Shown here one piece after another: positions 41,901 to 53,900 of a stretch of DNA of 64,000 nucleotides. This DNA comes from a candidate division FCPU426 bacterium (lineage in GTDB: Bacteria > Oederibacteriota > Muellerivitia > Muellerivitales > Muellerivitaceae). The stretch is taken from contig CAVYSE010000014.1 in assembly GCA_963771075.1 (NCBI GenBank), positions 32,226 through 96,225 on the forward strand. Direction: 5' to 3'. Position 1 is the stretch's first letter; every line of letters starts with the position of its first letter. Made by a program: the position numbers.

Positions 41901-44900
41901 TTGGGCGGTCAATTGGAAAGGGGGTTTGATTTTGTCGCCCAAACCCTCAAGTTAGAGGAAAACATGGCTGGCTGCGATTTAATCATCACCGGCGAGGGAA
42001 AGCTGGATGACACGAGCCGGGAAGGCAAAGCCCCGGTGGCTGTCGCCCGCTTGGCTAAAAAGCTTGGAATCAAATGTTTGGGGATCGTAGGATGCAACCA
42101 AGCTTCACCCGCTTGGTTAACGGAAGAGGGCTTCACCAAGGTTTACGCCCTTTATGACGTGCCCTTCAACGCCGAAGATCCTAAAAAGTTCGAATTTTCT
42201 AAACGGCTTTCCGATATTTTGGTTCAGATATTTCCAAAAAAATAGATCCGCTTGATGTTTGAAGTTTGATTTCCTTCCTCTTGCCGAGAAAAACCGCATT
42301 TTCCCTTTTTAAAACAAACTCCAAACCCACATGCCCGCGCAAAACCCCAGCGCCGCAAAGGTTAGAGATAAAACCAACGATTGCGAGAATTTGAACCATG
42401 AATGCCCCAATACTCTTCTCGCAGGATAAAAAATTTGATTCCCCCATCCATCCACGATGCAACGGCAATGGCCGCAGAGATAAGTGACATAATTCCCCAA
42501 TTTGATTGAAATGGGGAAAAACCGAAAAGATTGACGTCGATAACACTGAGGACAAAAGAAACGATGCATACCTGGCAAAATCTCGGGAAATATACCGGGC
42601 CAAAAAACCTTTAAATAAAGAAAGACAACCGACTTCACTAAAAATGCCATGGCAATTTCAGACGGGACCGCCTTCATTAACCAGTCGCGATAGGCGCCAA
42701 ACAAGTTGAACAGCAAGTAGACTTCCAAGGACCAAAGAAAAACCTTGGAAAAATGCCGTAAGGCACTGGAATAATTCAGTCGTAGATGCCCTTTTGAATC
42801 CTCTTTCCAACAATGTGCCCCGGCCAGCCAGTGAATAAATCCAAGGGCGTAATGGGTAATAAAAATAAAAGGCTTCAAGGCAGTAAAAACTTTGGAAGGA
42901 GTAGTCATGCAGTCTAAGGATAGACAAAAGTCGCCCGAGGTTAAATCTTTTTTTTAAACCCGGGAATTAACGTATGACAACCACCTTAAGGATCTTGTGT
43001 CCGATTATTCCATTGGCTGTATTAAGTTCCACAACCGCGATATAGGTACCGCTGGCCAGATTCGTTTGGCCCACATTCCAGTAGACGATTCCCAAGTTTC
43101 CAGGTTGGTTATAAAGAAGCGGCTTCACCAATTCTCCGGCCAAGGTATAAATCTTCACGTCAACCGATGTGACTTGGGCCGCGTCAGTATCGACGACGAA
43201 TTGGGCCATAGAAGTTTGATTCAGCCGAACCGGATTTGGCAATAAAACCACACCATTAATAGCTTCGGACGAACCCTCGATATGCAACACTTTCGTAATC
43301 TCTTGATTCGAATGAGAGCTTTGAACGGTAGATTGTATCTGCAGGTAATAAGTTCCCGGGGTAAGAATGACACCGTCATCTCCCGTACCGTTCCAAGTAA
43401 AGCTCTTTCCCGAACCCAAGGTAATAGTCAAGACACTGTTGTTCCCACCGGTTCCCGAGTAATTGGGAACGAGGACACTTGAGGAAATTTGGATTTGGGA
43501 GACGTTTAAATCGGAAGCGGTTAGTCCGCTCACTCCCATCATAGCGATAATATCAGCCTCGGAGATATGTTTCACAATTTCACCCGCCGAATTGAAGACC
43601 AAGGCCGTCAGGGTGCTACTACTGAGGTTCACGGAAACTGTTTGGCTTACAGAAGTGGTGGCTCCAAAGGGACTCGTGGTAGTGACTTTGATGAAATAGC
43701 TACCATTCGAGACTAATTGGCCGTTGTCGTTGGTACCATCCCAGGTTCCGAGGCTCTCGCCATTTGTGGAAATCTGGAGTATTTGCCCTGGGTTCGTTAA
43801 ACCACTTGCGGAAAGATTCAGGGACGAAATGGGAGAACTGGTTTCAAAGGTCGTATAGGTCTTAACAATTTCCCCGGCGCTGTTATAGATGGACATTTGC
43901 ACAACATAGCTTCCAATGACACTCACGGCATTACAGGATGTCATCGTGCCGCTTCCAAAGCTGAGTTTAGCGCAATTAAGAACTGGGCTGTTCTGGCCGC
44001 CAAGAATTTGAACTATGCTTTGGTAAGTCACTTGCAGATTGGAACCCGCGGGCACCACAGGGAATACCCAAGTCAAGGTATTCGAGGAAGAATTATAAAT
44101 TCCACCATCGGTTGCCGACCCGAGCAAATATTTCATTGCGATCGTGGCCGGTAGATTGTCCACAATCGTCACGTTCATCGCGGCAGTTGCCCCCGGGTTT
44201 TGGTATTGGAGGGTATAAACCAAGGTGTCATTTGCCTTAGCCGTGGTTTTATTTGAACTCTTCACTAGGTTGAGGTAAGGAGTGGCCGTGGGGGTTGCGG
44301 TCGGGGTCAACGTGGGTGTCGAAGTCGCCGTGAAGGTCGAAGTCATGGTCGGTGTAAATGTTCGGCTGTTGGTGGGTGTCAGGGTCGAAGTGGACGTCGA
44401 GGTATAGGTAAAGGTGCTGGTTGGCGTAAAGGTCCATGTCGATGTGGGTGTATGAGTTGGCGTGAAGGTATAGGTAAAGGTGGATGTGGGAGTGGCCGTT
44501 GGAGTGGGCGTAAAGGTGGGTGTGAAGGATGAGGTCGAAGTAAATGTAAATGTTTGGGTAAATGTAAAGGATGGCGAGGGAGTATTCGTTACGGTATAGG
44601 TCAACGTGGAAGTGGGTGTCGGGGTGTTTGTTAGCGTATTGGTAACCGTTGGGGTTGGGGTGGGTGTAAAGGTACTGGTCGACGTGTTCGTCGGGGTATA
44701 AGACATGGTGAAGGTCGGAGTCGAAGAAGGTGTGGGAGTGGCCGTCTGGGTAAAGGTTAAGGTTTGAGTCGAAGTAAATGTAGCCGTACTCGTCCAAGTA
44801 GCTGTCATAGTTTCTGTAGGTGTATTCGTAGGCGTATTGGAGGATGTAAAGGTCGGGGTGGATGTATTGGTAGGCGTAAAGGTTTCGGACGGTGTGTTTG

Positions 44901-50900: not shown

Positions 50901-53900
50901 ATTGGGCATTCGTTCCTTGTTGCTGGCATTGCACCTGTAAATTAAGCATAGCCGGTGTACCCGCTCCACTGTATGTTCCGCATTGAAGTGTGTTGGTCGG
51001 AGTTGCGGTTAGAAGACTAGTGTTTGTTTGTGTAACAGTAATCGTCGGGGTCAACGTAATTGTAAATGTCAGGAGTGGAGTACGCGTCGGGGTATTGGTC
51101 AAAGTAATGGTTGGAGTTATTGTTAAAGTCGGCGTTTGGGTAAATGTGCTTGTTTTGGTCGGTGTAAGGGTATTCGTATTTGTTATGGTCGGGGTAAGTG
51201 TAACTGTGTTCGTAAGAGTGAGTGTTATGGTTGGGGTTAATGTCGGTGTAAATGAAGTGGCGGGAGTTTTTGTATTAGTGCCGGTAATGGTGGGAGTTAG
51301 AGTTATTGTTCGTGTTAAGGTATTCGTGCCAGTAGGCGTTGGCGTTGAGGTATTACCTCCGGGAATGTTGAAAGAAACATAGCTGGTAGTCATTGAATTA
51401 GTCCCGACCGGGCACATATTCATATAGTTTTCACCCATCACCACGACCAAATTATAATTTCCTGGTGTTAACGAAGCCGGAATCTCCACCGTGACAACTT
51501 GGGTTACTGGTGTACCCAGGACCGTAGTTTGAGTATTTGAGTCCCATCCTCCTGTAGGGTTTGTATCCGCATAAGTGGTTGTGAATGGCGCTTGCGGCGC
51601 ATTTTGTATCGTTGTTCCAGGTCTAGGGGTTGTACTGTCGAGTAAAAAATATTGGTTTGCTGTCCCACAAGACTGAATAGTCGTATTTGTGCTGGATTCG
51701 GTAGCAAGCGTAAAAAACTCATCTTGGTATGTATTGTTGCTATCCGCCCAAATGATTGTGACATTAACCGAATTTCCAGCCGGAATGCTTGACGAGGAAA
51801 GAGTTAGATTCGTTGTTAAACTACCCGCCAAAACAGATTCAGGAAATAATTCAAAGAAACCACAAAGTACAAGCACCATTAATCCGAACCAGTTGTTCAG
51901 AATGCGGTGTGATCGATTTTTAGGTGGACCTTTTGTTTGAATCCTCATAATTTTTCCGGCCTAAAATATTTTTCAGATCTTGAAGTAATCGAAAAACCCT
52001 CATAGGTTTTTCGTTAAACCTCATATAAATTTTACCAATTTTTTTCTTATTCTGGAGAAAATTTAACTTAAACCCCTTTAAATAACGTTAAAAGAAAGCG
52101 CTTTTTAAGGCTCTTTCTCATTATTTGGCAATAACTTGGTCATTTATTCAAAGTTTTTATTAACTTCCCCATCTCAAAAACGACAAAAAGGTTACACATT
52201 TTGTGTAAATATTCTGCTTCCAAGCTAAACGGACCTGGACTTTTAATTCGCAACCCATCCGTTACTTATATCCACTATCCCCGATCTAACCTGGATTAAA
52301 CCGTATGGATATTCTTATTACTCACCCTCTAGTTAATCAATTCGGAAGTATCAACATCTGGTTCCGTTTGGTAACCGTGATATACTTTCGAGCTTTTTGG
52401 AGTAGACAACTTAAGTAAACAAGTGAGGAAAGAGTGATGTCCATTTCAGGTCATGCCTCAAACCTTTGGGAACAATTAGCCGAACAATCCATAAAAAATA
52501 TTGCGCCTTCCATTTCAGACGCGAAAAAAATACTCGAAGCCGCACCTATGGAAACGCTTTCCCTTCTCAAAGCCGCTTACAAGGTACGCCACCACTTTCA
52601 CGGCAATAAAGTGAAGATCCATGTGTTGCAAAACGCAAAATCAGGGACCTGCTCGGAAGATTGCGGATTTTGTTCCCAATCATCCAAATATGAAACCCCG
52701 GCCAATAAATATCCCTTGATGAACGTCGAGGAACTTGTCGAAGGGGCGAGGAAAGCCCGAAATGCCGGTGCCTGGAAATACTGTATGGTGACGGCCACCC
52801 GGGGACCGAGTAATCGGGATCTGGACGTCATTTGTGAGGCCGCCCGACGGATCAAGGCCCAGGGAGGGCTAACCCTTTGCGCTTCCTTGGGGCTTTTGAC
52901 CCCTGAAAAGGCATCCCGTCTCGCGGAAGCCGGCATTGACCGTTTCAACCATAACCTGGAAACTTCCCGCCGTCTCTATTCCAAGATCGTCTCAACCCAT
53001 ACCTACGATGACCGGATTGAGACCGCCCAGTTCGCCAAGCAGGCCGGAATGGAGGTTTGCTCGGGTGGCATCATTGGTTTGGGTGAGGAAATTGACGACA
53101 TATTGGAACTTTGTTATAACCTGAAGAAGATAGGCGCCGCATCGATACCCGTGAATTTCCTGGATCCCCGGCCGGGTACGCCCTTGGCTGATCACCCGAG
53201 GGTGGAACCCTTATTCGCCCTCCAGGTTCTTTGCCTTTTCCGTTTTGTTCACCCCGATGCGGATGTGCGGGCGGCCGGCGGGAGAGAAGCGACATTTCGT
53301 TCTCTTCAACCATTCGTGTTATTTCCAGCCAATTCCATCTTCACGAACGGTTACCTTACGACCCCTGGACAAGGTGAATCCGCCGACCACCAGATGATTC
53401 GGGATTTGGGAATGGAACCCCTATTGGTGGCTTTTGAATAAATTTTCAACCCTTAGACAACAAAATATCCATTTGCCATTAAAAAGGGTTTAGTTTTTAT
53501 TGAAATTTGAAAAAGGCTTTACCGAACCACGACCAATTTCAGGTTCTGGTGGCCGATGAGTCCGCCCTGGGCGTTGGTGGCTTCCACCACCGCGAAATAT
53601 AACCCGCTCGCCACTCCCGACGCGTCCCAGGAAGCGGTATTGGCACCCGCCGTGCCCGTCACCTTGCGCGTCACCAACTCACCCGCCGCGTCATACACCC
53701 GGTAGGCCAGCGTCAGGCTCTGGGACGAGTCCGAGGTGAACTGGACGCTATACCCCGTCGTTGGATTCATCAGGTTCGGCCTCGCCGTGATGTTCCCCAT
53801 CCCCGCGTTCGCCGTATCCGACAGCACCATCACGTGACCCGTCAAGACCGTCTCCCCGCCCTGACCATCCTGCGCCGATACCTCGATGTAATATTGCCCC

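What a model noticed while it worked through the whole genome (the two positions that open the first line are those of the whole stretch)
42967..51450. Kilo-residue (Thr-X)n tracts in strict dipeptide register tether ~60 secreted CAZymes and giant proteins to T9SS sorting [...]
In g02166 a 2005-residue stretch has Thr (95%) or Ser (5%) at every second position, and 56 proteins of this genome carry such (T-X)n tracts of >=100 residues (999 residues with 100% Thr in g01237), nearly always between an N-terminal glycoside hydrolase/protease/unknown domain and a C-terminal T9SS type-A sorting domain. Boldest reading: (T-X)n is a distinct structural module, a Thr-coated narrow beta-solenoid rod or densely O-glycosylated bottle-brush made by the ~35 expanded GT-C O-glycosyltransferases, that holds enzymes tens to hundreds of nm off the outer membrane as an enzymatic 'glycocalyx'. 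New would be a protein spacer class far longer and more regular than known Pro/Thr cellulase [...]
Evidence so far: Own scripts on proteins.faa: 86 proteins with a tract >=40 aa, 56 with >=100 aa; longest g02166 res 386-2390 (956 T + 46 S of 1003 alternate positions; X = N 191, P 176, L 97, V 96, I 95, Y 87, S 85, F 62), g03513 1107 aa, g01237 999 aa (all alternate positions T; unit [14 protein letters not shown]), g01569 949 aa. Carriers include GH5 (g01568,g02155,g02156,g02431,g02437,g02677), GH8 (g02128,g03674), GH9 g02664, GH12 g01829, GH28 g01827, xyloglucanase-like g01896/g01898, kumamolisin-like protease g02477, and many proteins with unknown heads. DNA copies are diverged (TRF 75-93% matches, call 11) and all four Thr codons are used (ACC 335, ACG 281, ACT 174, ACA 170 in g02166), so not a collapsed or inflated a [...]
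(Added by a program. Inside this text positions count along the whole contig: contig position 32,226 is position 1 of the stretch shown here. "Call 12" and the like, gene names such as g00115 and contig names such as C1 are that model's own, and its searches are not shown. The text may have been shortened before it was handed on; [...] marks where a part breaks off. The agent that wrote the report below was given it as the finding of a first reader that could run no searches.)

Follow-up and report, generated by a model that had tools for sequence, protein, structure and literature searches.

The report
Threonine-striped stalks on secreted proteins
An uncultured soil and bog bacterium puts long stalks, with threonine at every second position, on dozens of its secreted proteins; they are probably sugar-coated spacers like the serine-rich stalks of streptococci, and they come with a candidate sugar-adding gene cluster and signs that genes swap their heads inside the stalk.

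Summary
Observation confirmed. The gene is 42967-51948 (2993 aa, 166 aa longer than stated). It holds a 2005-residue (T/S-X)n tract, and 60 ORFs (strict rule) to 90 (tolerant rule) of this genome have tracts of 100 aa or more. Only the hydroxyl register is conserved. X ranges from hydrophobic to 60% Pro between relatives, which argues against one shared beta-solenoid. The best reading is an extended, O-glycosylated stalk, a Thr version of the serine-rich-repeat (SRRP) stalk; here it is tipped by a CBM3-fold domain.

Corrections: only 24 of 70 scanned heads are catalytic CAZymes. SprA and PorV-like barrels are present, but no PorU sortase, so covalent tethering is not shown. The expanded PMT_2 family does not track the tracts.

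Two new leads. (1) DUF2298/YYY, in a GT2-GT-C-Agl23 cluster, occurs in 35 of 36 tract-positive and 0 of 5 tract-negative genomes of the phylum (only two negative families). (2) Paralogues with unrelated heads share near-identical tract-plus-tail DNA, in five genomes.

Glycosylation, length and anchoring are unmeasured. My look-ups of the scan's earlier notes found cargo-plus-barrel pairs here and YYY clusters elsewhere, but not these tracts.

The parts
42967..51948 (-). Whole gene, 2993 aa: non-catalytic giant secreted protein (signal - domain 1 - short tract - CBM3-like domain - long tract - sorting tail)
51826..51948 (-).
   Evidence: hydrophobic stretch at residue 21; homologue aligns from residue 12
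51352..51825 (-). Domain 1 (residues 42-199), no Pfam family
50989..51351 (-). Short (T-X)n tract, residues 200-320 (position of SRR1 in an SRRP)
50296..50988 (-). Divergent CBM3-fold domain (residues 321-551), probable cellulose-binding tip
   Evidence: AF2 pLDDT 78; Foldseek top hits all CBM3, E 1e-6, 10-18% identity; CBM_3 weak in 4 of 23 homologues; matched in 21 of 41 genomes
44281..50295 (-). Long (T/S-X)n tract, 2005 aa
46708..50067 (-). 80 copies of a 14-residue unit ([14 protein letters not shown]); 53 distinct DNA units, 4-unit higher-order repeat, synonymous sites saturated
44874..46674 (-). Diverged 46/92-residue repeats within the tract (DNA periods 138 and 276)
42970..44280 (-). 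437-aa tail: DUF11, FlgD-Ig-like domains, T9SS-like C-terminal domain
   Evidence: FlgD_ig; DUF11 and match to the CTD end of the PorU model, E 1.7e-7; atlas leads all T9SS CTD clusters, scores under 0.9
46607..50320 (-). 1237-aa His/Tyr-rich ORF in another frame over the tract; a shadow of the repeat, not taken as a gene
   Evidence: inference from the codon pattern
53519..58891 (-). Paralogue, 1790 aa, tract 54815-56731 (640 aa); 3' tract and tail nearly identical to C10:22327, whose head is unrelated
30032..33787 (-). GH5 + tract (30992-32602) + CTD; mosaic: head 90% to C26:7815, tract and tail shared with C11:259332, last 270 nt 97% to the neighbour
26120..29797 (-). GH5 + tract (27080-28546) + CTD
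6338..11875 (-). Cargo with a 52-aa tract and CTD (8384-11875) followed by a PorV-like barrel fused to FlgD-Ig, OmpA and TPR (6338-8356)

Best explanation
(T/S-X)n is an extended, most likely densely O-glycosylated stalk, a threonine counterpart of the alternating-serine stalk of SRRPs and a very long form of Thr/Pro cellulase linkers. Proposed steps: the protein crosses the inner membrane by Sec (shown: signal peptides). Thr hydroxyls are glycosylated in the periplasm from a lipid-linked sugar, best candidate the conserved GT2 / PMT_2-DUF2298 / DUF2298 / Agl23-like cluster (inferred from co-occurrence). The CTD takes it through a SprA translocon to PorV-like barrels (components shown, route inferred). 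With no sortase the CTD is not swapped for LPS, so cargo is either held non-covalently on a barrel or released (open). The stalk keeps an enzyme or binding head tens to hundreds of nm from the tail (2005 aa is at most about 500-680 nm at an assumed 0.25-0.34 nm per residue). In the focal protein the head is CBM3-like, so it is probably a cellulose adhesin. Because all tracts share an (ACN NNN)n backbone, gene conversion between paralogues often ends inside the tract, joining old heads to new tails and changing stalk length in register (mosaics shown, mechanism inferred).
For: Hydroxyl, not beta-branching, is kept: at T positions S 1864 against V 144, I 70, A 51. Omega 0.04 at T and 0.27 at X in quiet blocks of 8 paralogue pairs. 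X composition free between genomes (Pro 23-60%), Gly under 1% and D/E/K/R 5-8% in all 8 other genomes examined. N-x-S/T sequons depleted (140 of 2120 Asn), so any glycan would be O-linked. Carriers look secreted or lipoprotein. SRRP architecture and O-glycosylation of alternating Ser (PMC3601411); GT39-dependent glycosylation of enzymes with alternating Thr/Pro linkers in C. bescii (PMC6151902). TIGR03662 in 35 of 36 tract-positive and 0 of 5 tract-negative genomes, while PMT_2, PMT and GH5 do not track; across 50 other genomes 7 of 10 YYY-positive against 8 of 40 YYY-negative have the pattern. Cluster order conserved; H. hispanica Agl23 is described as a putative flippase for donors of extracellular N- and O-glycans (PMC11182771). 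SprA-like in 39 of 41 genomes, 25 PorV-family matches, 59 of 78 tails with a CTD-type hit. Mosaics: 12 of 15 pairs with >=90% identical tails have unrelated or under-60% heads; also in G004, G014, G024, G001.
Against: No glycan has been measured. The 5 tract-negative genomes fall in only two families, so the YYY link rests on one or two independent contrasts. Three YYY-positive genomes of other phyla have no tract pattern and 8 YYY-negative ones have some; the Agl23 family also occurs in tract-free G028. My searches did not show that DUF2298 is a GT-C: no PDB hit, HHalign only on a zinc ribbon, one weak AglB-core hit in 1 of 18; it may build another surface glycan. In the perfect arrays X is under much stronger constraint (pN/pS 0.04-0.08, aliphatic and Pro positions nearly invariant) than a generic stalk needs. 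Only 10 of 126 tract genes lie directly before a PorV-like gene. No mosaics in the genes fetched from G006, G018, G002, G021, and some shared blocks begin in the tail, not the tract.
Confidence: 0.6

Rival explanations
1. The tracts are unglycosylated extended or disordered linkers. Bare Thr on one face and L/V/I/F/Y on the other make an amphipathic strand, with Pro preventing aggregation, that spaces domains or sticks weakly to polysaccharide.
For: Hydrophobic X is 17-57% in this genome's 67 tracts of 200 aa or more; T is far more common than S; no glycosylation data.
Against: Relatives have tracts with 3-6% hydrophobic X. Strict hydroxyl retention and the co-occurring glycosylation cluster are not explained. 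A bare 2000-residue linker would be open to proteases (C. bescii CelA is cleaved more without glycosylation).
Confidence: 0.15
2. The tracts, or at least the perfect 14- and 16-residue arrays, fold into a narrow beta-solenoid or cross-beta rod with Thr ladders outside (about 70 nm for 2005 aa at 14 residues per coil).
For: Strong purifying selection on X in the arrays; the same 14-mer in two loci with randomised codons; AF2 placed repeated strands in the 46-residue repeats, at pLDDT 40-60; only 24 register slips in about 45,000 residues.
Against: Same slot filled by TPTN-, TNTT-, TS- or TP-type units; 787 TPTP steps and no common Pro period; Gly nearly absent; AF2 is biased towards solenoids for repeats (PMC11795689 abstract and section 3.2.8). 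I did not fold the perfect array.
Confidence: 0.12
3. Tract length and spread are mostly a by-product of recombination and slippage on a 6-nt-period backbone; short linkers are useful, giant ones are tolerated.
For: Identical heads with tracts of 772 and 528 aa; mosaics; 51 of 53 indels even in 10 pairs.
Against: About 3% of the genome is tract; omega 0.04 at T; neighbouring units use different codons more often than shuffled order in 10 of 10 array runs, 0 of 300 shuffles as low in 4, as expected if collapse is opposed; tracts over 1400 aa in this gene slot in three other genomes.
Confidence: 0.08
4. The giant tract is an assembly artefact.
For: The assembly has indel errors (SprA split at a G8 run; C7 gene in three ORFs); no contig spans the tract.
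Against: Longest exact DNA repeat is 295 of 6015 bp; four studies cover it without a depth drop; similar lengths in 5-contig genomes G004 and G006.
Confidence: 0.03

Closest known systems
Serine-rich repeat proteins (Fap1, GspB, PsrP, SraP) of Gram-positive bacteria (PMC3601411, section 2.2 read)
   Same: Alternating hydroxyl-residue dipeptide register over most of a giant protein; order signal - short repeat - binding region - long repeat - C-terminal anchor; stalk projects an adhesive domain.
   Different: [quoted passage not shown]
Thr/Pro linkers of Caldicellulosiruptor bescii CelA with GT39 Cbes_1864 (PMC6151902, passages read)
   Same: Alternating Thr, cellulolytic context, glycosylation by a membrane GT with a probably lipid-linked donor, protection from cleavage.
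   Different: Those are inter-domain linkers of mainly Thr and Pro (tens of residues, recalled); here up to 2122 aa with mixed X, and no PMT (PF02366) pattern that tracks the tracts.
Type IX secretion system of Bacteroidota (PorU role from PMC13086638 passage; other components recalled)
   Same: SprA-like translocon, PorV-family barrels, type-A-like CTDs.
   Different: No PorU/C25 in 40 of 41 genomes; no GldM and only a sub-cut-off GldK match in this genome; 25 PorV-family matches.
DUF2298 / Chlor_Arch_YYY (TIGR03662) with Agl23 (TIGR03663)
   Same: The cluster at G000 C1:128-144 kb holds both, with two GT2 and a PMT_2-DUF2298 fusion, as in Chloroflexota loci.
   Different: No acceptor is known for DUF2298 (2 papers hold the term; the one I opened names it only in a table). 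The link to Thr tracts is proposed here.
Staphylococcal Ser-Asp repeats, plant AGP (X-Hyp)n codes, mucins (all recalled, not looked up)
   Same: Dipeptide register or dense O-glycosylation used as a stiff spacer.
   Different: Different residues, hosts and enzymes.

Membership tests
SRRP | Long alternating hydroxyl-residue dipeptide repeats | tested here: met
   Register met, with Thr (88% T, 9% S pooled)
SRRP | Repeats are serine-based | tested here: not met
   Thr dominates in all 9 genomes examined
SRRP | Signal - short repeat - binding region - long repeat order | tested here: met
   Focal protein, with one extra domain before the short tract
SRRP | LPxTG cell-wall anchor | tested here: not met
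   C-termini are CTD-like; host has outer-membrane genes
SRRP | SecA2/Y2 export and cytoplasmic glycosyltransferases | not tested
   No search run
SRRP / glycosylated Thr-Pro linkers | O-glycosylation of the repeat | not testable with these tools
   Only indirect evidence
T9SS | SprA translocon | tested here: met
   TIGR04189 matches in 39 of 41 genomes, one ~2000-aa locus, below the cut-off in all but 2; split at a homopolymer in G000; PF14349 found nothing
T9SS | PorV-family barrel | tested here: met
   25 matches, 15 rows over the cut-off
T9SS | Type-A CTD on cargo | tested here: met
   52 TIGR04183 matches in the genome; 59 of 78 tails with a CTD-type or FlgD hit at E<=0.05. The focal tail is not among the 52; it matches the CTD end of the PorU model
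T9SS | PorU sortase for covalent LPS anchoring | tested here: not met
   PF01364 in 1 of 41 genomes (G036), none in G000
T9SS | GldK/L/M/N motor | tested here: inconclusive
   GldM none, but no control genome rang; GldK far below cut-off; GldL and GldN not searched
Beta-solenoid repeat protein | Conserved coil period with inward hydrophobic ladder | tested here: not met
   No common period or core across tracts; perfect arrays not folded, so open for those
CBM3 | CBM3 beta-sandwich fold (head domain 2) | tested here: met
   cellulose binding itself not testable
GT-C (for DUF2298) | Homology or fold match to known GT-C enzymes | tested here: inconclusive
   No PDB hit; AglB_core E 0.009 in 1 of 18. 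The Agl23-like neighbour does match ArnT, E 7.7e-7

The most novel reading that the evidence does not exclude
The (T-X)n tract is a genome-wide modular display system: a universal glyco-stalk recognised by the orphan DUF2298/YYY membrane enzymes, which would make them a new class of protein O-glycosyltransferase shared with Chloroflexota and archaea; exported by a sortase-free, minimal SprA/PorV system; and acting at DNA level as an in-register recombination joint that keeps re-pairing enzyme or adhesin heads with stalks of different length and different sorting tails.
Probability: 0.27. Interest if true: 0.82.

Novelty: new variant of a known kind. Interest (0 to 1): 0.58.

Why it matters
The stalk design is known from SRRPs, but a Thr version used on 60-90 unrelated proteins (3% of a genome) throughout most of an uncultured, partly cellulolytic phylum was not found in my paper searches. 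It gives a testable acceptor for DUF2298, a family without a known function, and points to T9SS-like export without sortase outside Bacteroidota. It also offers a natural case of domain shuffling through a low-complexity linker, and of repeat arrays whose codons are scrambled while the protein unit is kept. If the glycosylation cluster works in a laboratory host, it would be a route to long, protease-resistant spacers for enzyme display.

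Tried and rejected
A 16S pattern gave one taxonomically named record, Ca. Firestonebacteria, 96.7% over 1194 columns; placement in the FCPU426/Goldbacteria/Firestonebacteria group is an inference, not a phylogeny. 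Doud et al. (PMC7031533; term search and section 7) has no occurrence of 'linker', 'threonine' or 'FlgD', and 'type IX' only in a reference; its supplements were not read and may list these proteins. PF14349 missed SprA that TIGR04189 found. PMT_2, PMT and GH5 rejected as correlates of the tracts. STT3 gave two weak matches in G000 only. The atlas search with the tract had recognition 693 and unnamed clusters: no information. The head domain had no PDB sequence hit and 2 homologues in the word-index search. No RNA holder listed. Read joints that skip 276 or 534 or go back 84 or 276 bases may be strain variants or graph artefacts; not used. The even-indel count (51 of 53) used 10 of the 14 pairs: left out one pair with no indel, two with non-homologous tracts, and C17/C28, which had 4 odd gaps of 6; aligning T on T favours even gaps anyway. 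Whole-tract pN/pS at X (0.41-1.36) is inflated by non-homologous segments and was replaced. Heads: 7 of 90 ORFs were not fetched and 13 heads under 120 aa were not scanned. No complex was folded: the cognate barrel of the focal CTD is unknown and a pass would follow from solved PorV-CTD likeness. The cross-phylum set was cut to 50 genomes, hand-picked and rich in Chloroflexota, so its Fisher p (0.0045) overstates.

Full report
Observation. The window holds one ORF on the minus strand at 42967-51948, 2993 aa. Residues 552-2556 have T (956), S (46) or A (1) at every second position. Shuffles reach at most 76 residues. Residues 628-1747 are 80 copies of a 14-mer encoded by 53 distinct DNA units; the longest exact DNA repeat is 295 bp. 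In the genome (4.39 Mb, 96.7% complete) 60 ORFs by a strict rule and 90 by a tolerant rule have tracts of 100 aa or more; tracts make up about 3% of the DNA. Contigs from four studies (two labelled soil, one bog, one unlabelled metagenome) cover the tract without a depth drop, but none spans it. The assembly has indel errors that split some genes.

Host and range. The 16S gene is 96.7% identical over 1194 columns to a record titled Ca. Firestonebacteria. Doud et al. place FCPU426 16S sequences in Goldbacteria and report many cellulases there (PMC7031533, section 7 and term passages). I infer this group. A pattern of 16 Thr codons in register occurs in 36 of 41 genomes of the phylum and in none of the 5 from families f4 and f5. 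A 300-aa piece of the tract matched 3624 cluster representatives at E<=0.001; 147 of the best 150 carry tracts of 100 aa or more, the longest 916, with varied C-termini. Shorter mixed-X tracts occur in Chloroflexota. The module is therefore not tied to T9SS or to this genome.

Anatomy. The focal protein is signal, unknown domain, short tract (200-320), a 231-aa domain, long tract, then DUF11, FlgD-Ig-like domains and a CTD-like end. The 231-aa domain, folded with 22 homologues, gave pLDDT 78 and matched only CBM3 structures at the top. No catalytic domain was found, so it is probably an adhesin. Of 70 heads scanned, 24 are catalytic CAZymes (GH5 x8, GH8 x3, GH74-like propellers x3 by inference from Sortilin-Vps10 hits, GH12 x2, GH30 x2, GH9, GH28, GH44, GH116, PL4, CE4), 4 are Barwin/DPBB, 1 is a kumamolisin-like protease and 29 have no family. 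Of the 90 ORFs, 67 end in a CTD-like motif and 11 look like lipoproteins.

What is conserved. At T positions the substitute is S (1864), not V (144), I (70) or A (51). In quiet homologous blocks of 8 paralogue pairs omega is 0.04 at T (2 nonsynonymous, 27 synonymous) and 0.27 at X (20 and 26). In relatives the same gene slot holds unrelated units: TPTN-type, TNTT/TATN-type with 3-6% hydrophobic X, TS-type and TP-type with 60% Pro. Pro spacing is irregular and there is no shared period. AF2 gave pLDDT 40 for the last 500 residues, and AF2 is known to over-call solenoids on repeats (PMC11795689, abstract and section 3.2.8). This fits an extended chain defined by hydroxyls. One result points the other way: in perfect arrays synonymous sites are saturated while X is almost fixed (pN/pS 0.04-0.08), which leaves a folded or specifically bound state open for those arrays. 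Adjacent units share codons less than shuffled order in 10 of 10 runs, consistent with selection or survival against collapse.

Glycosylation. Asn sits at X positions, so N-x-S/T sequons are rare (140 of 2120 Asn). The 33 PMT_2 matches are real but follow genome size, not tracts. A cluster at C1:128-144 kb, next to a tract-bearing lipoprotein gene, holds GT2, a PMT_2-DUF2298 fusion (split in this assembly), a second DUF2298, two NHL proteins, GT2, an Agl23-family protein and a PorV-like barrel; the order is kept in relatives. TIGR03662 (DUF2298) is in 35 of 36 tract-positive genomes (the miss is 63% complete) and 0 of 5 tract-negative ones; GH5 and PMT do not show this. In 50 hand-picked genomes of other groups, 7 of 10 YYY-positive and 8 of 40 YYY-negative had a 10-Thr pattern. 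The contrasts are few and kin are not independent. The Agl23-like protein matches ArnT, and H. hispanica Agl23 is a putative flippase for donors of extracellular N- and O-glycans (PMC11182771, passages). I could not confirm a GT-C fold for DUF2298; earlier scan notes predict one. This is a lead, not a result.

Export and anchoring. A SprA-like gene is in 39 of 41 genomes, PorV-family matches number 25 and TIGR04183 matches 52. PorU, which attaches cargo to LPS in P. gingivalis (PMC13086638, passage), has no C25 match in 40 of 41 genomes; GldM was not found and GldK only weakly. Only 10 of 126 tract genes directly precede a barrel gene. Export by a reduced T9SS-like route is likely; tethering is not shown.

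Head swapping. Among tract genes of G000, 15 pairs have last-270-nt identity of 90% or more; 12 have unrelated or under-60% heads. Shared DNA usually starts inside the tract. Two genes have identical heads and tracts of 772 and 528 aa. The window's GH5 at 30032-33787 is a three-way mosaic. The pattern recurs in G004 (5 contigs), G014, G024 and G001, not in the genes fetched from G006, G018, G002 and G021; some blocks start in the tail, and one G024 pair shares mainly the tract. Gene conversion that resolves in the (ACN NNN)n backbone is the simplest account; misassembly is not excluded for the 100%-identical pairs.

Comparison and verdict. It works like an SRRP stalk (PMC3601411 section 2.2) and like glycosylated Thr/Pro linkers (PMC6151902, passages), but fails SRRP membership on residue and anchor. 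Searches for FCPU426 or Goldbacteria with T9SS, for 'alternating threonine' and for Pro-Thr domain shuffling listed no paper describing it (listings only); subscription journals are not covered. New variant of a known kind; interest 0.58.

Noticed in passing
window 60112-61480: An ISL3 element (transposase 60150-61142, 8-bp direct repeat ATTAATGA on both sides) interrupts a CBM3 + tract + NHL + CTD gene whose pieces are 61417-64000 and 59467-60102.
   Followed up: yes
G000 C1:128000-144900 (L235): Conserved glycosylation-type cluster (GT2, PMT_2-DUF2298, DUF2298, two NHL, GT2, Agl23-like, PorV-like) upstream of LptF/LptD-like genes; DUF2298 and Agl23-like proteins share a zinc ribbon.
   Followed up: partly
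G000 C20:131583-137533 (L234): SprA-like gene, read in two frames because of a G8 run (probable assembly error), directly followed by a 1539-aa CTD protein without a tract, near lpx genes.
   Followed up: partly
window 4186-6324: PMT_2 + TPR membrane protein converging on the cargo/barrel pair; one of 33 PMT_2 matches of unknown acceptor.
   Followed up: no
window 46708-50067; C7:215730-222358; C26:116496; L183: Perfect protein repeats with saturated, over-dispersed synonymous codons: a natural form of codon scrambling.
   Followed up: partly
G000 C17:145825-159075: Two GH5-tract genes in inverted orientation with identical tract DNA and heads 98% identical; possible inversion or conversion substrate.
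   Followed up: no
window 59164-59393: 21/43-bp tandem repeats between two genes, no credible ORF.
   Followed up: no
window 39446-40783 and 42309-42908: Two ORFs without Pfam or NCBIfam family: a secreted protein with a Gly/Arg/Asn-rich start, and a small membrane protein with two CxxC motifs just downstream of the focal gene.
   Followed up: no
G081 C1:366035-366876: Long (Thr-Gly)n repeat in an Acidobacteriota genome without DUF2298; a different dipeptide class.
   Followed up: no
G076 (locus L072): Unclassified genome with 7535 pattern matches and the same YYY/Agl23/NHL cluster; probably another member of this phylum.
   Followed up: no
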